From a virus, in IMG/VR virus record IMGVR_UViG_3300034041_000023: 6,076 bases of DNA, one strand, 5' to 3'. The first letter of the stretch is position 1. Every line of letters begins with the position of its first letter. The translations under genes and the position numbers were made by a program. Under the pieces are notes generated by a model. That model was not told the DNA's origin, searched no databases, and was given only the letters and a program-made list of their open reading frames with translations. Shown one piece after another: positions 814 to 5,488 of this stretch.

Positions 814-1773
814 CTATTTTAAGACATAGTTTTGCGCCGCGCGCAAGTCTCTTAACAGAAGTTCGTTTTTGTAATCCGCCATCTCCCTATCGGTCATGGG
901 CGGCTGTTCGAACCGTCGGGTGCCCTGCTGATCTTCGTAATATTCGAATATATGCGCATAGTGGCCCTTGTCGAAATCATCTTTCAACTTTTTCAGGATG
1001 TAGCGCCGATAGGCGTTTTCCATCCATTCAGTCTTCACAGCGTTGCGACCTTCCGGCCAGAGCTCAAAGAGCCGGTCGAAATATTCCTCTTGGGCTTTGC
1101 CTTGCAAAGTGTATCGCCAGCCGGACCGATGCGCAAACGGCGGTGTATAGTTGAAATTGCGCGGAAACACTCGCATTTCTGCTTGTCTTTCCGCTAGTTG
1201 ACGCACCATCGCTTGCCCTAAAATCGGGCGCTTTGAGTATCCTATCCACTCGGATAGGTGCTGCGTCTTATCGCGCTTTTTCTTGCGCTCTTGTTCTTTG
1301 GCTTTCACCAGATATTTGACAATATATCTGATTTTCGCCTCAGAGGCCCCGTAATCTGCGTAGACATAGCCCCAAGGCCAATGCTTCCAGCTTACGTAGG
1401 GTTTTTTTTCTGGTATGTCGGGCGGTAGCCCTTGCCCCATGAGGAGGCAATGAAAATGGGTGCGACCCTTTCTTTCGCCATATTCCCCAGCGGCAACATA
1501 CTTAAACTGCCAGTGCCGCCTTAAACGACGTTGGAATTTTTGGAAATCTTCGACGTTAACCACCTTTGTTTGCAAAGGGTTTATGATCTTTCGGTCATCG
1601 TAGGTCAGTGTTAGGGCTAGCGTCCAATCGCTGTCAGCAGCTTCCATTAATGTTCGACCAATTAGGTCAAACATTTTGTTTTTGTTGCAAGCGTAACAGT
1701 GGTTGCACGGAACCAACACTTTTTCAAAGGAAGGCCCGACGGGCTTCCAGATAGGTTGAGGGTTAACGCACAT
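814..1773 (-). CDS. VP4: Replication initiation protein (Microviridae VP4 / gene A-like HUH endonuclease), 319 aa
   Basis: ATG at 1773 with GAGGT 8 nt upstream (1786..1782). N-terminal Cys cluster PCNHCYACNKNK. HUH superfamily motifs are in the right order: motif I LTLTY (aa 54-58), motif II HFHCLL (aa 106-111), motif III with paired tyrosines YIVKY (Y150/Y154). Confidence 0.95.
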   Translation of the reverse strand: MCVNPQPIWKPVGPSFEKVLVPCNHCYACNKNKMFDLIGRTLMEAADSDWTLALTLTYDDRKIINPLQTKVVNVEDFQKFQRRLRRHWQFKYVAAGEYGERKGRTHFHCLLMGQGLPPDIPEKKPYVSWKHWPWGYVYADYGASEAKIRYIVKYLVKAKEQERKKKRDKTQHLSEWIGYSKRPILGQAMVRQLAERQAEMRVFPRNFNYTPPFAHRSGWRYTLQGKAQEEYFDRLFELWPEGRNAVKTEWMENAYRRYILKKLKDDFDKGHYAHIFEYYEDQQGTRRFEQPPMTDREMADYKNELLLRDLRAAQNYVLK

Positions 1774-1798
1774 GTATTTTTACCTCGTTAGGCGTGAC

Positions 1799-1840
1799 GG
1801 CAGTTAGAATACGGTATCAAGTAGGTGTATTCTAACGGCC
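1799..1840 (-). promoter_or_regulatory. Hairpin with a phiX174-origin-like decamer in its loop: candidate viral-strand replication origin (Rep nick site)
   Basis: Perfect 10-bp stem 1803-1812 (gttagaatac) / 1827-1836 (gtattctaac). It extends to 14 bp (1799-1840) with one mismatch at 1802/1837. The 14-nt loop reads ACCTACTTGATACC on the coding strand. CTACTTGATA (complement of 1815-1824) matches the phiX174 ori decamer CAACTTGATA at 9/10 positions. The structure is certain; the function is inferred. Confidence 0.5.
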
Positions 1841-1858
1841 CGCAAATTTACAAGTAAA
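1829..1858 (-). promoter_or_regulatory. Possible sigma70-type promoter for rep and the downstream gene train
   Basis: On the minus strand: TTTACT (1858..1853), an 18-nt spacer, then TAGAAT (1834..1829), about 55 nt upstream of the rep ATG. Hexamer matches are 4/6 and 5/6. The host is unknown, so this is weak. Confidence 0.25.
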
Positions 1859-1873
1859 TTTGCGGGCCGTTAG
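1832..1873. repeat. Perfect palindrome (20-nt arms) that overlaps the candidate ori hairpin by 5 nt
   Basis: ctaacggcccgcaaatttac (1832-1851), aa, gtaaatttgcgggccgttag (1854-1873). The arms are exact reverse complements. It shares CTAAC 1832-1836 with the right arm of the 1803-1836 hairpin, so the two folds exclude each other. Confidence 0.9.
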
Positions 1874-1881
1874 AGTTTTCG

Positions 1882-1906
1882 TCGCTTCGCTCCGTTCGCT
1901 TCGCTC
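1882..1906. repeat. Direct repeat TCGCTTCGCTC x2 (1882-1892, 1896-1906). A third 10-nt copy lies at 2177-2186.
   Basis: Read directly. The third copy sits in the loop of hairpin unit 1 of the tandem repeat. Unit 2 carries the variant TCGCTGCGCT (2243-2252). Confidence 0.85.
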
Positions 1907-1923
1907 ATTTTGTCGCGCTAACG

Positions 1924-2013
1924 CGCGGCTTTGTTCGCACCACGCCCAGACAGCGCGCACGTAGTGACCCTTCGGGGCTGACTGTCTCGGCGTGGTGCCT
2001 GCGCCGCGTTTTT
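1924..2013. other. Long compound hairpin followed by T5 on the + strand
   Basis: Base stem cgcggc (1924-1929) / gccgcg (2003-2008). Main stem 1937-1953 / 1982-1998 is 17 bp with one C-C mismatch (1947/1988). Apical CCC-TTCG-GGG sits at 1968-1977. TTTTT at 2009-2013. Confidence 0.8.
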
Positions 2014-2084
2014 GGGTTAGCGCATTTTTAGTTAGATCGTTTGCGTGTAACCTGCTGCGATCCGGCTAAAGCCCATTCTGATAG

Positions 2085-2110
2085 GCAAATTCGGCGAATT
2101 TGCTTTTCTG
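2085..2110. other. Small AT-rich hairpin GCAAATT-cggcg-AATTTGC followed by TTTTCTG on the + strand
   Basis: Stem 2085-2091 / 2097-2103, loop 2092-2096, T4 at 2104-2107. The same GCAAATT/AATTTGC arms occur within the 1832-1873 palindrome (1842-1848 / 1857-1863). Confidence 0.7.
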
Positions 2111-2127
2111 CTTGACTACCGTTGGTT

Positions 2128-2300
2128 CGGGGGGCGGTGCCCACCCATCGCTTTTACCCGTGTTCTTGGTCAATGCTCGCTTCGCTGCGCGTTGACCAGG
2201 AACACTTCTGTTGCGTTCGGTAATCGTGTTCTTGGTCAATGCTCGCTGCGCTGTGCGTTGACCAGGAACACTTGCGTTGTGGTAGCGATGGCCCACCCCC
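2128..2300. repeat. Composite structured element: two tandem 66-nt hairpin units enclosed by an 8-bp stem and G6/C6 runs
   Basis: Unit 1 stem is gtgttcttggtcaa 2160-2173 / ttgaccaggaacac 2192-2205. Unit 2 stem is 2226-2239 / 2258-2271. Each stem is 14 bp with the same single T-G position, and each loop is 18 nt. The unit cores differ at only 2 loop positions. Flanks: ccatcgct 2144-2151 pairs with agcgatgg 2284-2291, and cgggggg (2128-2134) pairs with ccccccg (2296-2302 approx). Confidence 0.9.
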
Positions 2301-2405
2301 CGTTTTCTGAGGGCGTAACGCCTCTTTCTTTGCTATGAAGGGGGTAAGGCCGATTTAATCGTTTCACCCCCGCCTTGAGGCTATTTTGGGGGTTAGAAAC
2401 GAATT

Positions 2406-2426
2406 GGGGGCGCAGTTAGCGCCCCC
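2406..2426 (-). terminator. GC-rich hairpin immediately after the last minus-strand ORF: candidate terminator of the gene train (possibly bidirectional)
   Basis: gggggcgc (2406-2413), agtta, gcgccccc (2419-2426): a perfect 8-bp stem. On the minus strand it begins 5 nt after the TAA of the 49-aa ORF and is followed by AATTCGTTTCT, which is only moderately U-rich. On the + strand it is followed by TTGTTTAGTT. Confidence 0.5.
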
Positions 2427-2430
2427 TTGT

Positions 2431-2580
2431 TTAGTTCTGTGGTCCAATGTGAGACTTTTGGACCTTTTGCCTATCCTCAACATGGTTCCAAACGTTGGAG
2501 ATATGCTCGCTCAAATGAGCATTGAGCGTTATCAACTGTTTGAAGTCGAGGCGGCATATAGCGTCAATGGCATCAGCCAT
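2431..2580 (-). CDS. Small hydrophilic protein, 49 aa (hypothetical), not in the supplied ORF track
   Basis: Hand translation from ATG 2580 gives MADAIDAICRLDFKQLITLNAHLSEHISNVWNHVEDRQKVQKSHIGPQN, stop TAA at 2433..2431. The ATG lies 10 nt after the peptidase stop, and the spacer AGAAAAGGCA contains AAGG. It is on the same strand as all other genes and is followed at once by the 2406-2426 hairpin. Confidence 0.45.
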   Translation of the reverse strand: MADAIDAICRLDFKQLITLNAHLSEHISNVWNHVEDRQKVQKSHIGPQN

Positions 2581-2590
2581 TGCCTTTTCT

Positions 2591-3298
2591 TTATTGATCA
2601 TGATTGTAATTCCCTGTGGTAATTCGAGTTGCCGAATAAGGAGTGCTTACCTCGTGGAAGCCATCAGGAAGCACTTTAGCGCGGTTGATCCAATCGCTTA
2701 ACTGCCAGTGGGCAGGATCCCATTTAAACCGATCGTTAGGATCACGAAGGGAAGCAGCGAATTGGTTGCCGCTTTCATCGCCGCCCCAAACGATTTTGGT
2801 TCCATTGCCCAAGCGCATTTGCTTGGCAATGCGTTTGCCGGTCATGCCGACATAAAGCCAAAACTCTTTGGGGCAATCCCAATGGTGGTAGGCGTGAACA
2901 ATATCAAGAGCGCAAGAGCGCTGATGAGGTCCGCTCAGAACCTTAGAGAAACCGGCAGAAGCCAGTTCATACTGAAGTTCTGGCGAACGATAGACTGTAT
3001 GAACATACATGGGCACACCGTCCTTGCGGAATTGCCGAAACAGTTTTTCGGCGAATTCTCGCAATTCAGGAGGACAGCCAACCCAGTTGGCTTTGGCATG
3101 TAGTTTCAACATGTAGTCGCTATTGAAAGCGTCAGGTTCCGCTTTCAAATATTGAAGTTGCTTTGCAACGTCAGTTGGGAACCACTTTTCAAAGGGATCA
3201 ATCGGAAAGTTAACTTTCCGGCCTCGTGCCTTTTCAAAGAGTTCGCGGATTGTCGAAACGACATATCCAGCTTTTAACAGATCCAATTTCCAGTTCAT
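2591..3298 (-). CDS. Zinc metallopeptidase of the LAS / peptidase M15 (VanY / L-Ala-D-Glu peptidase-like) type, 235 aa: probable peptidoglycan hydrolase (endolysin)
   Basis: ATG at 3298 with AAAGG 7 nt upstream. Motifs are in canonical order: YRSPELQ (aa 103-109); SGPHQRSCALD with H125 and D132, matching the H-x6-D part of the S-x-H-x-x-G-x-A-x-D signature (A and D in register); WGGD (aa 171-174); and DPAHW with H197 (the D-x-x-H motif). Codons were checked on the sequence: H125 = 2924-2926, D132 = 2903-2905, H197 = 2708-2710. No signal peptide or TM segment at the N-terminus. Confidence 0.8.
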   Translation of the reverse strand: MNWKLDLLKAGYVVSTIRELFEKARGRKVNFPIDPFEKWFPTDVAKQLQYLKAEPDAFNSDYMLKLHAKANWVGCPPELREFAEKLFRQFRKDGVPMYVHTVYRSPELQYELASAGFSKVLSGPHQRSCALDIVHAYHHWDCPKEFWLYVGMTGKRIAKQMRLGNGTKIVWGGDESGNQFAASLRDPNDRFKWDPAHWQLSDWINRAKVLPDGFHEVSTPYSATRITTGNYNHDQ

Positions 3299-3356: not shown

Positions 3357-3866
3357 CTACACTTCTTTTTCTGCGGTTGTCGGTTCTGCGGCTTCCGGTT
3401 CGATTGCGTCCGGTTCCGCTTCGGCGGGAGTTTCTTCTTCGAGTGTTTCAAAGTCTAGGTCCTGATCTTTGCGGCGTTTGGCCAGCATTTTTTCAAATTC
3501 CAATTTCTGCTGACGCTTTTCAGCGAGTTGCTTCAACTGAATTTGGCGCAACGCCTGTTTGACATACTGTTCAGCGGGGCTATCCATCGGTTTCTTTTCG
3601 GCATTGGTAAAAACCTCACCGACAGATTGAGCAGCCTTAGGAGCGTCACGAATGACGCAAATTTCGGCTGTGGATGTGAAATGGTGGTGATCGTCAGGGC
3701 CGACGATATGGAAATAACTTCCATAACCCAGCAAGGACTTTGCAGCCCCAACATGGATATACAACGGCGCCTCAGCAGAAAGACGTAGGCGCGTTGTTCC
3801 ATAGGCGGGCACTTTCGCGCCCGCTTTGAACATTTCGGTGTTTGGGTTGTATTTGATCGTTTGCAT
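3357..3866 (-). CDS. Hypothetical 169-aa protein; possible internal scaffolding protein (VP3-like) by position and composition
   Basis: ATG at 3866..3864 overlaps the VP1 stop TAA (3868..3866) as TAATG. The N-terminal ~90 aa look beta-rich and contain a DDHHHF patch. These are followed by a charged helical segment (LRQIQLKQLAEKRQQKLEFEKMLAKRRK) and an acidic Pro/Glu/Ala tail. I recognise no diagnostic motif. Confidence 0.7.
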   Translation of the reverse strand: MQTIKYNPNTEMFKAGAKVPAYGTTRLRLSAEAPLYIHVGAAKSLLGYGSYFHIVGPDDHHHFTSTAEICVIRDAPKAAQSVGEVFTNAEKKPMDSPAEQYVKQALRQIQLKQLAEKRQQKLEFEKMLAKRRKDQDLDFETLEEETPAEAEPDAIEPEAAEPTTAEKEV

Positions 3867-5488
3867 TAGATTTGCTCCGCTTCGACTGCCAAGAATTCGG
3901 CGTTATCTTCGACGAGCGCGTCGCCGAATTGAGTAATCCCAACAATAGAAATCTGTTGGAGAACTGAAATGTTCACGCAGTGGTTCGAAGGAACACTGAA
4001 CACATCTTGAGGGAAAGGCGAAGGGCAAAGCCAATGATCCGAAGTAAAGACAGGATCAACAATGTCAGCTTGCCAAAGGCCAGTTCGTGCAGTGGTCGAC
4101 GGCGTTCCCGGCGTGGACTGGATAAATTCACCGCCAAGGCGGGTGTATTCGCGTTTCCACTTAGAATTCATTGGCTCATAGCCAAACGTCCCATCAGGGG
4201 TAGAATGCGCCGTATCAAGACGCCGGTTAATAACCGTGTCAACCGGTTCAATCCGCTGAATGTCGCGCATAGCGTTCGGAAGATCGTCAACGTCCGTGAC
4301 ATAAAGATATTCATCAGATTGACGCTCATAAAGCCGTTCAGGCATAACCTCGACCGTCGCCATAATCACGCCGCCATAATCCGACGTTGGGACGTTGACG
4401 TTCAAAGACATTTGAGCACGGCCCGTAGTAATACTGTCATCCAGATTTGCCGCGTCTGTCGCGTGACGCTCTTGCATACCGAAAACAACAGTTTTGCTAT
4501 CCAGCAACCAAGGGCGCTGAAGAAGTTCGTTTGGAACGGTAAAGCCTTGCATAAGTTCGGCCATAACTACGTCATCGTTATTGAACCCGCTAAAATCGCT
4601 ACCGTCATAGGCCGCGACACGTTTAGCAAAGGCTTGCGTAGTGCGCGCCTTGTCAACGTTTGCAAGAGTGGTAGTGATGGTCGTTCCGGCAAGTTCTGTA
4701 AACACTTCGTTGGATTGGTAATAATCGCCAACATCTGTCACAGTGCCCGAGGCACGAATAGCCAAATTATTGTGCGGCTGATCCAAAGAAGCACGATAAT
4801 TAGCAGTTCCGGGATTGACAGTTTCGGCGAAGGACAAGGGAACCTGTCCCGCCGAAACGTCGAGATCAAGAGCACCTGTTACGAGTGCCTGTTCATAATC
4901 CGGCACGATGTCGTGCATACGGTTGCGCGGCCAAAAGGCCTGTTTCAATTTACGCGCTTCACTCGCGTTCTCCGACCAATACTCGTTACGGGGCAATTTC
5001 GATGAATGCGATGCCAATCGGAAATTGTGAATATGATTGTAAACGTCGATATACTCATGGTTGATCACCTGAGAAGCGACACCATGAATTCCCAAAGTTT
5101 TATAAATTTCAGACGCCAAATCGGCACTCACCGAGCCTGACGGCGTTGTTTCAAACAACGCTGGCGGCGTTCGCGTCGAACTGTTCAACGCAGTAATGCT
5201 TTTGCCATGATATGCGTGCGTGTATTCATCAAGGCCTGAATAGTATGGAAGCGACGGACGAGGCACAAACCAGACTTGCCCACGGGCAATGACAGCGTTT
5301 TCCAATGGTTTTGGCATTTCTGCCAATTCCATTTGAATTGCAATGCGCCCGCTGGCGCTATCCTTGCGAAGCAATGGCGCTACGGCGACAGGGATAACAA
5401 CGCCAGCGTTGCCAGACGTGCGAAGAGCGACGTTATCCATGCGGCGTGTCATGCCATACTGAAGAGGTTCTGCGTTTTGTTTGATCAT
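3866..5488 (-). CDS. VP1: Major capsid protein (Microviridae VP1 / F-like), 540 aa
   Basis: Largest ORF. ATG at 5488 with AAGGA about 9 nt upstream, 17 nt after the VP2 stop. The size is typical of gokushovirus-like capsid proteins. The N-terminal pattern NAGVVIPVAVAPLLRKDS resembles the conserved G-x-hydrophobic-IP...LPGD region of VP1 proteins. Genome context: rep, pilot and capsid on a 6-kb circle. Confidence 0.88.
   Translation of the reverse strand: MIKQNAEPLQYGMTRRMDNVALRTSGNAGVVIPVAVAPLLRKDSASGRIAIQMELAEMPKPLENAVIARGQVWFVPRPSLPYYSGLDEYTHAYHGKSITALNSSTRTPPALFETTPSGSVSADLASEIYKTLGIHGVASQVINHEYIDVYNHIHNFRLASHSSKLPRNEYWSENASEARKLKQAFWPRNRMHDIVPDYEQALVTGALDLDVSAGQVPLSFAETVNPGTANYRASLDQPHNNLAIRASGTVTDVGDYYQSNEVFTELAGTTITTTLANVDKARTTQAFAKRVAAYDGSDFSGFNNDDVVMAELMQGFTVPNELLQRPWLLDSKTVVFGMQERHATDAANLDDSITTGRAQMSLNVNVPTSDYGGVIMATVEVMPERLYERQSDEYLYVTDVDDLPNAMRDIQRIEPVDTVINRRLDTAHSTPDGTFGYEPMNSKWKREYTRLGGEFIQSTPGTPSTTARTGLWQADIVDPVFTSDHWLCPSPFPQDVFSVPSNHCVNISVLQQISIVGITQFGDALVEDNAEFLAVEAEQI

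What the first reader, a model, noticed from the sequence alone, without database searches (positions are those of the whole stretch)
2128..2300. Two tandem 66-nt hairpin units inside a closing stem: a cruciform module of about 170 nt in a 6-kb genome
Units at 2160-2205 and 2226-2271 each fold into a 14-bp stem with an 18-nt loop. Both keep the same T-G position in the stem and differ only at two loop bases. That pattern fits selection on structure or very recent duplication. The pair is bracketed by ccatcgct/agcgatgg (2144-2151 / 2284-2291) and by G6/C6 runs, giving a multi-branched junction in ssDNA. The stems contain TTGACC on both strands, which resembles a -35 hexamer. This recalls the f1 minus-strand origin, where hairpins mimic a promoter for RNA polymerase priming. 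Candidate roles are a complementary-strand origin, a packaging or Rep accessory site, or a captured miniature inverted-repeat element. Compact microviruses rarely carry this much repeated non-coding DNA.
Basis: partly seen in the sequence, partly recalled or inferred. Interest (0 to 1): 0.7.

Follow-up and report, generated by a model that had tools for sequence, protein, structure and literature searches.

The report
Palindromic insertion at a phage hairpin tip
The two tandem hairpins are real, but they are a recent 132-base insertion into the tip of an older conserved hairpin in a small single-stranded DNA phage; the nearest relatives lack them, so they are probably a dispensable add-on, not a replication origin.

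Summary
The window is a circular 5,982-nt microvirus with all genes on the window's minus strand. Two near-identical 46-nt hairpins lie 66 nt apart (2160-2205 and 2226-2271) inside a GC-clamped stem (2128-2152 / 2284-2302). The stems are 17 bp with two T·G pairs and 12-nt loops, not 14 bp with 18-nt loops.

The deciding evidence is comparative. The nearest relative (capsid 79%, Rep 84% identity, two independent assemblies) has the same clamp as a simple hairpin, ccatcgcT-Tgcgatgg. The window carries 132 nt (2 x 66) in place of one T at that tip. A third lineage keeps the clamp with another tip.

So the clamp is conserved, and the units are a lineage-specific apical insertion that was then duplicated. 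The unit has no match in viral, genome, plasmid or phage collections. No sigma-70-like promoter pair lies in it.

The elements conserved across the clade lie elsewhere: a core loop closed by covarying arms (1937-1998) and a CTTGATACCGT nick-like motif beside a perfect hairpin (1799-1874).

The most likely reading is a tolerated, self-folding insertion of unknown source. An accessory priming role or a mobile-element origin is not excluded.

The parts
2128..2152 (.). Left half of the conserved GC-clamped base hairpin (c-G6-cggtgcccacc-catcgct on the + strand). On the gene-sense strand this is the 3' half, GCGATGGGTGGGCACCGCCCCCCG.
   Evidence: 26 of 26 nt are identical to the nearest relative L142/L154. 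It is conserved in L020/L155. It is paired in all folds.
2284..2302 (.). Right half of the conserved base hairpin (agcgatgg-ccca-C6-g on the + strand). On the gene-sense strand this is the 5' half, CGGGGGGTGGGCCATCGCT.
   Evidence: 19 of 19 nt are identical to L142/L154. The alignment fold of three lineages shows an invariant stem with one compensatory outer pair, C-G to U-A.
2152..2283 (.). The 132-nt lineage-specific insertion (two 66-nt periods), occupying the place of a single T in the apical loop of the relative's hairpin.
   Evidence: Direct comparison of the window's gene-sense strand with L142 4252-4294 and L154 105-147.
2160..2205 (.). Unit A hairpin: 17-bp stem with two T·G pairs on the + strand and a 12-nt loop. 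On the gene-sense strand the loop reads GCAGCGAAGCGA, which contains GCGAAGC.
2206..2225 (.). 20-nt linker between the units (ttctgttgcgttcggtaatc). Its core TTGCGTT-GGTA recurs after unit B.
   Evidence: Read; repeat D2.
2226..2271 (.). Unit B hairpin. It has the same stem as unit A and two loop substitutions (T to G, C to T on the + strand). The gene-sense loop reads ACAGCGCAGCGA.
2406..2426 (-). Context: terminator-like hairpin GGGGGCGC-taact-GCGCCCCC followed by AATTCGTTTC, just after the last late gene (56-aa ORF, 2601..2431).
   Evidence: It is conserved in L020/L155.
2367..2392 (-). Context: conserved C5...G5 hairpin with a TAGCC-N-CAAGGC loop, upstream (gene sense) of the base hairpin.
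   Evidence: an outer pair changes C-G to G-C in L020.
1937..1998 (-). Context: hairpin conserved across the clade. Its loop reads TCAGCCCCGAAGGGTCACTACGTGCGCG, and it is closed by a 17-bp stem whose sequence covaries among nine genomes.
   Evidence: (I3).
1799..1874 (-). Context: perfect 21-bp hairpin (1831-1874) overlapping a 14-bp hairpin (1799-1840). The loop of the latter carries CTTGATACCGT (1811-1821). All of this lies immediately upstream of the rep start codon (1773). A promoter-like TTTACT-18-TAGAAT sits at 1858-1829.
   Evidence: (I1, I9).

Best explanation
The module has two layers of different age.

The outer 'closing stem' is an older, conserved GC-clamped hairpin. It sits in the structured non-coding region between the last late gene and rep of an approximately 6-kb microvirus.

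The two 66-nt units are a 132-nt insertion specific to this lineage, placed exactly in the apical loop of that hairpin. The most likely history is that one palindromic unit of unknown source entered the single-stranded tip and was then duplicated in tandem by slipped-strand replication (both steps inferred).

The insertion is self-complementary and apical. It therefore folds on itself, either as two local 17-bp hairpins or as one long nested hairpin, and leaves the conserved base stem intact. That is why it is tolerated.

It is probably dispensable. Whatever the base hairpin does, the function belongs to the clamp and not to the units. The better candidates for the replication signals of this clade are the conserved core-loop hairpin (1937-1998) and the CTTGATA-type nick motif beside the perfect hairpin (1799-1874).

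Shown here: the insertion point, its absence from relatives, conservation of the clamp, and the orphan status of the unit. Inferred: the mechanism of origin and the dispensability.
For: 1. Empty site. L142 and L154 are two independent assemblies of the nearest relative (capsid 79%, Rep 84% identity). Both read GGGGGGTGGGCCATCGC-TT-GCGATGGGTGGGCACCGCCCCCC. The flanks are 19/19 and 26/26 identical to the window, where 132 nt replace one T.
2. A third lineage (L020, L155, L156; three assemblies) keeps the same clamp with a different tip, GAGCGAAGCGAG. So the tip is the variable part, and parsimony places the gain on the window's branch.
3. The clamp is invariant in the three lineages, with one compensatory outer pair.
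4. The two copies differ at only 2 of 46 hairpin positions, whereas the flanking non-coding DNA of window and relative is 79-86% identical. The duplication is therefore younger than the split from the relative.
5. No other copy of the unit was found. The exact 17-nt arm and two looser hairpin patterns hit only this contig or chance coding matches in IMG/VR. The 120 genome-contig hits all carry a single arm. Nothing was found in the plasmid or phage collections.
6. Elements conserved across nine genomes lie elsewhere in the region.
7. Hairpin growth recurs in this region. The core-loop stem is 17 bp in the window, 4+5 bp in L154, and more than 100 nt per arm in L145. A 14-nt tandem duplication lies at 1882-1909 (D4).
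Against: - Only three lineages carry the clamp, and no genome closer than 79%/84% identity exists in the searched collections. Copy-number variation and covariation of the units cannot be assessed.
- Absence from relatives does not prove that the units have no function in this lineage.
- The source of the unit is unknown.
A host-borne family could have been missed.
- On the gene-sense (presumed packaged) strand, the loop of unit A contains GCGAAGC. The same 11-mer, AGCGAAGCGAG, forms the tip of the homologous hairpin in L020. This hints that the tips may be under some constraint.
Confidence: 0.6

Rival explanations
1. Accessory complementary-strand initiation signal. On the packaged ssDNA the two stable hairpins resist SSB and recruit host primase or RNA polymerase. 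This would add to or reinforce a minus-strand origin, as the hairpins of phage G4 or f1 do.
For: - The module lies in the structured non-coding region upstream of rep. Hairpins at that position have been proposed as minus-strand origin candidates in other microviruses (PMC9865509).
- The unit loops carry GCGAAGC and GCGCAGC on the gene-sense strand. Mini-hairpin motifs of this GCGNAGC/GCGNNAGC kind occur at the G4, St-1 and alpha3 primase origins and at RSF1010 ssiA (PMC13037366).
- The fold is strong on both strands.
Against: - The units are absent from the nearest relatives, which must still convert ssDNA to dsDNA.
- The hairpins are less stable on the gene-sense strand, where they carry C·A mismatches (-12 vs -15 kcal/mol as DNA).
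- The GCGNAGC motif is not general in the clade's non-coding regions.
- The element that is conserved and covaries is a different hairpin.
- There is no -35/-10 pair for an f1-type mechanism.
Confidence: 0.14
2. Non-autonomous mobile palindromic element (REP/BIME-like, or a MITE derived from IS200/IS605). It would be mobilised in trans by a host Y1/HUH transposase that acts on single-stranded DNA and inserts into exposed loops.
For: - The insertion is clean, sits in a single-stranded hairpin loop, and has no target-site duplication and no terminal inverted repeats.
- Two similar hairpins lie in the same orientation, as at the two ends of IS200/IS605 elements (my knowledge of that family; abstract of PMC6006769).
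- The T·G pairs sit on the strand opposite to the one that carries the T·G pairs of the base hairpin. This is compatible with a foreign origin.
Against: - No second copy was found anywhere searched.
- No GTAG or CGTC tag is present (the flank reads CGTG).
- The 46-nt palindrome is longer than the 20-40 nt typical of REPs.
- The units are in direct rather than alternating orientation, unlike REPs in BIMEs (abstracts of PMC3733652 and PMC2817692).
- The two halves are tandem repeats that include their linkers, which fits slippage duplication better than distinct left and right ends.
Confidence: 0.12
3. RNA-level element. The hairpins would act as transcription terminators or insulators, or as 3'-end stabilisers, either between the late operon and rep or against antisense transcription.
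For: - As RNA, the window + strand forms perfect 17-bp stems with G·U pairs (-29 kcal/mol). The stems are followed by UUCUGUUG or UUGCGUUG (sequence).
- 10 of 11 terminator-like sites in 1700-2650 lie on the + strand, against 1.4 expected in total.
- Clusters of hairpins have been proposed to terminate transcription (abstract of PMC8355165).
Against: - No gene or convincing promoter requires termination on the + strand.
- On the gene-sense strand there is no U tract after either hairpin, and the stems carry C·A mismatches.
- The units lie between a terminator-like hairpin (2426-2406) and the promoter-like site for rep (1858-1829). They may therefore be little transcribed.
- They are absent from relatives.
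Confidence: 0.08
4. Assembly or amplification artefact, such as a chimeric join or duplicated read.
For: Only one contig from one metagenome carries the insertion. Viromes are often amplified by methods that create hairpin-mediated chimeras (my knowledge).
Against: - The insertion sits exactly at the apex and preserves the stem.
- The two copies differ by substitutions and indels, so this is not a duplicated read.
- The inserted sequence has no match elsewhere in the genome, unlike self-templated amplification chimeras.
- The longest exact repeat is about 23 nt, too short to confuse an assembler that produced a 94-nt terminal overlap.
Confidence: 0.04

Closest known systems
Hairpins upstream of rep in small microviruses (reekeekee- and roodoodooviruses), proposed as candidate minus-strand origins (PMC9865509)
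   Same: Same virus family and the same position, in the non-coding DNA before rep. In both cases ssDNA hairpins are predicted with DNA folding parameters, with compensatory changes in conserved stems (here for the base clamp and the core-loop hairpin).
   Different: Those hairpins are conserved within their clades. The two units here are confined to one genome and are inserted into a conserved hairpin. The function is unproven in both cases.
Complementary-strand origins of phage G4/St-1/alpha3 (primase-recognised hairpins) and the phiX174 PriA (n') site
   Same: A cluster of stable hairpins in an intergenic region of a microvirus ssDNA genome. GCGNAGC-type mini-hairpin motifs sit at hairpin tips (PMC13037366).
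   Different: There is no sequence similarity and no conservation of the units among relatives. The units are less stable on the presumed packaged strand. No biochemical data exist.
f1/M13 minus-strand origin (hairpins that mimic a sigma-70 promoter)
   Same: Two adjacent hairpins in ssDNA, and a TTGACC hexamer inside the duplex stems.
   Different: There is no -10 partner at promoter spacing. The phage family is different.
REP/BIME elements and IS200/IS605-derived MITEs (PATEs)
   Same: Short imperfect palindromes with G·T pairs on one strand. Insertion leaves no target duplication. The mobilising enzymes prefer single-stranded DNA.
   Different: There is no GTAG or CGTC tag. The palindrome is 46 nt rather than 20-40 nt. 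The units are in direct tandem orientation. No other copies were found, and no associated transposase is known.
T-shaped terminal hairpin of adeno-associated virus (two small palindromes inside a larger one)
   Same: The same topology: two internal hairpins closed by an outer stem in a ssDNA virus.
   Different: The AAV hairpin is the end of a linear genome and primes replication there. This genome is circular (94-nt terminal overlap) and replicates by a rolling-circle Rep.

Membership tests
Essential complementary-strand origin of a microvirus (G4/phiX174-type ssDNA initiation signal) | Conserved among related phages that share the replication strategy | tested here: not met
   The units are absent from L142/L154 and from L020/L155/L156. 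Only the base clamp is shared.
Essential complementary-strand origin of a microvirus (G4/phiX174-type ssDNA initiation signal) | Stable, SSB-resistant hairpin on the packaged (gene-sense) strand | tested here: inconclusive
   It folds on the gene-sense strand (-11.9 and -12.4 kcal/mol per unit) but with two C·A mismatches, and it is more stable on the complementary strand. SSB resistance cannot be tested here.
Essential complementary-strand origin of a microvirus (G4/phiX174-type ssDNA initiation signal) | Primase, PriA or RNA polymerase starts a primer at the site | not testable with these tools
   Needs in vitro priming on ssDNA.
f1/M13-type promoter-mimic origin | -35-like and -10-like hexamers at 16-18 nt spacing within the hairpin duplex | tested here: not met
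   No promoter-like site was called in 2128-2300 on either strand. By eye, the best -10 candidate after TTGACC is GGTAAT at a 20-nt spacing.
REP/BIME | 20-40 nt imperfect palindrome with a GTAG or CGTC tag at one end (PMC3733652) | tested here: not met
   The palindrome is 46 nt. The flanking bases read C-GTGTTC (CGTG), with no GTAG or CGTC.
REP/BIME | High copy number in a bacterial chromosome, more than 100 per genome (PMC2817692) | tested here: inconclusive
   Each of the 120 genome-contig loci carries a single arm, which fits chance hits.
REP/BIME | Neighbouring REPs in alternating orientation within a BIME | tested here: not met
   The two units are direct tandem copies (D2).
IS200/IS605-derived MITE (PATE) | Subterminal hairpins at both ends in the same orientation, with no terminal inverted repeats and no target-site duplication | tested here: met
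   Two like-oriented hairpins. The flanks ccatcgc/gcgatgg show no duplication compared with the empty site.
IS200/IS605-derived MITE (PATE) | Further copies elsewhere, and a cognate TnpA with a conserved target tetra- or pentanucleotide | tested here: not met
   No other copy was found in the viral, genome, plasmid or phage collections. Target and guide pairing cannot be judged from one copy.
Intrinsic (rho-independent) terminator | GC-rich stem, 3-8 nt loop, then a U tract | tested here: not met
   Not called by the scan. The loop is 12 nt. The gene-sense strand has no T run after either hairpin. The + strand has only 5 T in 8 nt after each one.
Microviridae genome (context) | Circular genome of about 4-7 kb with a microvirus major capsid protein and an HUH rolling-circle Rep | tested here: met
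   A 94-nt terminal overlap gives a 5,982-nt circle. Rep matches PF23343 at 1.9e-16 and phrog_942. The capsid has hundreds of homologues on 4-7 kb contigs, including proteins named microvirus major capsid protein.

The most novel reading that the evidence does not exclude
The 66-nt unit may be a new kind of hairpin element that enters exposed loops of single-stranded DNA. That would make a microvirus genome a natural target and vehicle for ssDNA-specific mobile DNA. Alternatively, it may be a lineage-specific auxiliary priming signal built around the clade's recurrent AGCGAAGCGAG mini-hairpin tip.
Probability: 0.12. Interest if true: 0.6.

Novelty: new variant of a known kind. Interest (0 to 1): 0.33.

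Why it matters
If this reading is right, the finding is a clean natural example of how the hairpin-rich non-coding region of a small ssDNA phage grows. Foreign or newly made palindromic DNA is accepted at a hairpin apex because it folds on itself and leaves the functional stem intact.

The comparison also separates the parts that are likely to carry function from the part that looked most striking but is probably dispensable. The likely functional parts are the GC clamp, the core-loop hairpin with covarying arms, and the CTTGATA-type nick motif.

This tells an experimenter where to look for the still unknown minus-strand and plus-strand origins of non-phiX microviruses.

Tried and rejected
- **Known RNA families and tRNAs.** Rfam at a permissive threshold gave only sub-threshold miRNA-model hits, which reflect generic hairpins. 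No tRNA or tmRNA was found.
- **Coding potential.** The 76-aa ORF 2296..2066 on the gene-sense strand spans the units. The net 131-nt insertion shifts its frame relative to L154, and no Pfam or PHROG family matches it. It was rejected as a gene.
- **Promoter mimic.** No -35/-10 pair was found.
- **Phage attachment site.** In the only prophage relative found (Pseudogemmobacter humi contig, L165), the junction lies after rep and not in the non-coding region before it. The units resemble no dif-type site that I know.
- **Host or mobile-element source.** The exact arm and two looser hairpin patterns were searched in IMG/VR (the extra hits are chance matches in coding DNA). The arm was searched in 185,579 genomes (single arms only). 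blastn was run against plasmids and phages. Nothing was found.
- **Internal source.** blastn-short of the insertion against the rest of the genome and 15 related loci gave only 9-12-mers.
- **Strand of action, from folding energy and G·T counts.** The results were inconsistent across seven non-coding regions, so no inference was drawn.
- **GCGNAGC mini-hairpin enrichment as a clade signature.** It is present in the window and in L020 but is not general.
- **Selection on stems versus loops, or on hairpins versus linkers.** With 2 substitutions and 3 linker events, the counts are too small to be significant.
- **Independent assembly of the same virus.** Looking up the identical Rep returned only the same contig.
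- **More relatives.** The metagenome-contig scan with a capsid profile gave only two distant loci.

Full report
**What the window is.** The 6,076-nt window has a 94-nt exact terminal overlap, so it is a 5,982-nt circle. It is IMG/VR contig 3300034040_000029.

All credible genes lie on the window's minus strand.
- The Rep gene runs 1773..814. It matches PF23343 at E = 1.9e-16 and phrog_942 at 3e-32.
- The 540-aa capsid gene runs 5488..3866. It has weak DNA similarity to annotated microvirus capsid genes. It has hundreds of protein homologues on 4-7 kb contigs, some named microvirus major capsid protein.
- A 235-aa endolysin-like gene and a 56-aa ORF (2601..2431) follow.

About 657 nt, from 2430 down to 1774 in gene sense, are non-coding. 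I take the gene-sense strand to be the packaged strand, as in known Microviridae (established knowledge).

**Checking the observation.** The two units are real.
- A 55-nt direct repeat has 66-nt spacing and 93% identity (D2).
- The arm GTGTTCYTGGTCAAYGC occurs four times against 0.04 expected.
- The fold z-scores are -7.4 and -5.4 on the two strands.

Several details need correction.
- The stems extend to 17 bp with two T·G pairs on the + strand, which are C·A mismatches on the gene-sense strand. The loops are 12 nt.
- The left closing arm is at 2145-2152.
- The minimum-energy fold is one long nested hairpin. The 'two hairpins in a closing stem' fold is 3-4 kcal/mol worse.
- Each unit is more stable on the + strand: -14.4 and -15.1 vs -12.4 and -11.9 kcal/mol as DNA, and about -29 vs -21 kcal/mol as RNA.

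**The decisive comparison.** Protein searches found no genome closer than 79% capsid identity and 84% Rep identity. That nearest relative was assembled independently from two runs, L142 from SRR17267544 and L154 from SRR17267536.

The flanks are identical to the window over 19 and 26 nt. The window has 132 nt (2152-2283, exactly 2 x 66) where the relative has one T.

The next lineage (L020, L155, L156; three assemblies; capsid 73%, Rep 78%) keeps the same clamp, GGGGGGTGGGC...GGTGGGTACCGCCCCCC, with yet another tip, GAGCGAAGCGAG.

An alignment fold of the three lineages, with the insertion removed, gives an invariant clamp with one compensatory outer pair.

The clamp is therefore the conserved feature and the apex is the variable part. 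Parsimony places the gain of the units on the window's own branch. The two copies differ at 2 of 46 hairpin positions, whereas the flanking non-coding DNA is 79-86% identical between the window and its relatives. The duplication is therefore recent. The shared T·G positions are inherited and are not evidence of selection.

**Where the unit comes from.** I could not find a source.
- The exact arm and two looser hairpin patterns hit only this contig in IMG/VR, apart from chance matches inside coding DNA.
That fits the number expected by chance for a 17-mer in 596 Gb.
- blastn against plasmids and phages found nothing.
- The rest of the genome and 15 related loci share only 9-12-mers with the insertion.

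One of those short matches is suggestive. The unit A loop on the gene-sense strand contains AGCGAAGCGAG, which is the very tip of the homologous hairpin in L020. The 10-mer AGCGAAGCGA (TCGCTTCGCT on the + strand) also occurs twice at 1882-1909.

**What is conserved in the region instead.** Two other elements are shared far more widely.

The first is a loop reading TCAGC-(small hairpin)-TCAC-N-GTGCGCG. It is closed by arms that differ in sequence and length but stay paired in most of nine genomes, down to 50% capsid identity (window 1937-1998).

The second is a perfect 18-21-bp hairpin immediately upstream of rep in every genome examined.
- In five of the thirteen genomes checked it is followed by CTTGATACCGT or CTTGTTACCGT (window 1811-1821).
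- That motif sits in the loop of a second hairpin (1799-1840).
- It matches the CTTGATA nick-site core of the phiX174/pC194 class of rolling-circle initiators (my knowledge; not tested here).

These two elements are the better candidates for the minus-strand and plus-strand origins.

A terminator-like hairpin follows the last late gene (2426-2406). A promoter-like TTTACT-18-TAGAAT site lies in the perfect hairpin (1858-1829). No promoter-like site lies in 2128-2300. The units therefore sit between a likely terminator and the likely rep promoter.

**Interpretation.** The most likely account (confidence about 0.6) is as follows. A palindromic segment of unknown origin entered the single-stranded apex of a conserved hairpin and was duplicated by slippage. 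It persists because it is self-folding and leaves the clamp intact.

The region is prone to such changes. The core-loop stem has grown from 4+5 bp in L154 to 17 bp in the window and to more than 100 nt per arm in L145. A 14-nt tandem duplication lies at 1882-1909.

Long, hairpin-rich non-coding DNA before rep is normal for this clade. The regions are 370-1,400 nt long and fold at -0.17 to -0.27 kcal/mol per nt.

**Rivals.**
- *Accessory priming signal (0.14).* This is kept alive by the position, by precedent for hairpins upstream of rep as origin candidates (PMC9865509), and by GCGNAGC mini-hairpin motifs at known ssDNA priming sites (PMC13037366). It is weakened by the absence from relatives, by lower stability on the packaged strand, and by the motif not being general.
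- *Mobile REP- or IS200/IS605-like element (0.12).* This fits the clean loop insertion without target duplication and the like-oriented hairpins. It fails the REP tag, size and orientation criteria (abstracts of PMC3733652 and PMC2817692), and no second copy is known.
- *RNA-level terminator or insulator (0.08).* This fits the G·U-compatible stems and T-rich tails on the + strand. However, there is nothing known to terminate there.
- *Artefact (0.04).* This is unlikely given the exact apical placement, the differences between the copies and the lack of self-homology. Only one contig exists, though.

**Verdict.** The finding is a new variant of a known kind of feature, namely structured non-coding DNA of ssDNA phages with a lineage-specific palindromic expansion. 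It is of modest interest in itself. The conserved core-loop hairpin and the nick-like motif nearby are probably the more useful leads.

Noticed in passing
window 1937-1998 (gene-sense = minus strand); also L154 ~205-250, L155 ~3735-3770, L021 6060-6101, L148 5632-5687, L149 1314-1479, L151 6014-6069, L145 6116-6357, L147 3184-3338: A loop conserved across the clade, reading TCAGC-(small hairpin)-TCAC-N-GTGCGCG. It is closed by arms that differ in sequence and length (from 9 bp to more than 100 nt) but stay paired in most of the nine genomes. It has no Rfam match and is a strong candidate for a replication signal.
   Followed up: partly
window 1799-1874 (minus strand), motif at 1811-1821: A perfect 21-bp hairpin lies directly upstream of rep in all relatives. 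In the window it overlaps a 14-bp hairpin whose loop reads ACTTGATACCGT. CTTGATA is the nick-site core of phiX174/pC194-type Rep proteins (from memory). A promoter-like TTTACT-18-TAGAAT lies in the same hairpin.
   Followed up: partly
window 1882-1909, 2177-2190, 2243-2256; L020 4300-4310 and 4467-4476: The motif AGCGAAGCGA, which contains the very stable GCGAAGC DNA mini-hairpin, recurs on the gene-sense strand of the non-coding region. It appears five times as GCGNAGC there and never on the other strand of that region. It also forms the tip of the homologous hairpin in L020. It is not general in more distant relatives.
   Followed up: partly
window 2128-2152 and 2284-2302 (gene-sense strand); L154 105-147; L155 3486-3524: Inside the conserved clamp, the heptamer GGTGGGC/T occurs as a direct repeat on both sides of the apex. 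Together with the G6 run this gives four G tracts (GGG-GGG-T-GGG ... GGG-T-GGG). It could be an iteron-like protein site or a quadruplex that competes with the hairpin. Neither idea was examined.
   Followed up: no
window 1700-2650: Ten of eleven terminator-like sites (hairpin followed by a T run) lie on the + strand, antisense to all genes, against 1.4 expected in total. On the gene-sense strand, nearly every hairpin is preceded by an A run. This is unexplained.
   Followed up: no
L149 525-1317 and L150 5506-6332: In two relatives the gene caller places two or three consecutive ORFs (59-93 aa) on the strand opposite to all other genes, within the long non-coding region before rep. That would be unusual for a microvirus if the ORFs are real.
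   Followed up: no
L165 3328-14319 (Pseudogemmobacter humi UXAW01000089.1): Two microvirus-like prophages lie head to head next to rpsB-tsf and a LuxR-type gene. Each runs from small ORFs through capsid to Rep. The junctions therefore lie after rep and not in the non-coding region before it. This points to Alphaproteobacteria as hosts for the wider clade.
   Followed up: partly
window 3866-5488 (minus strand): The 540-aa capsid protein gets no Pfam hit at E <= 0.01 and only a weak PHROG hit (phrog_514, E = 0.002). Only three of the 120 listed homologues carry a precomputed PF02305 hit. This capsid clade is poorly covered by current profiles.
   Followed up: no
L021 4490-4601: Seven tandem copies of a 12-nt unit (ACCAACACCGGA) lie near the 3' end of the 155-aa ORF that follows the capsid gene (4125-4592) and run slightly past its stop codon. 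This gives a short peptide repeat. The homologous ORF in L020 (3065-3133) has similar GAGGAAACA repeats.
   Followed up: no
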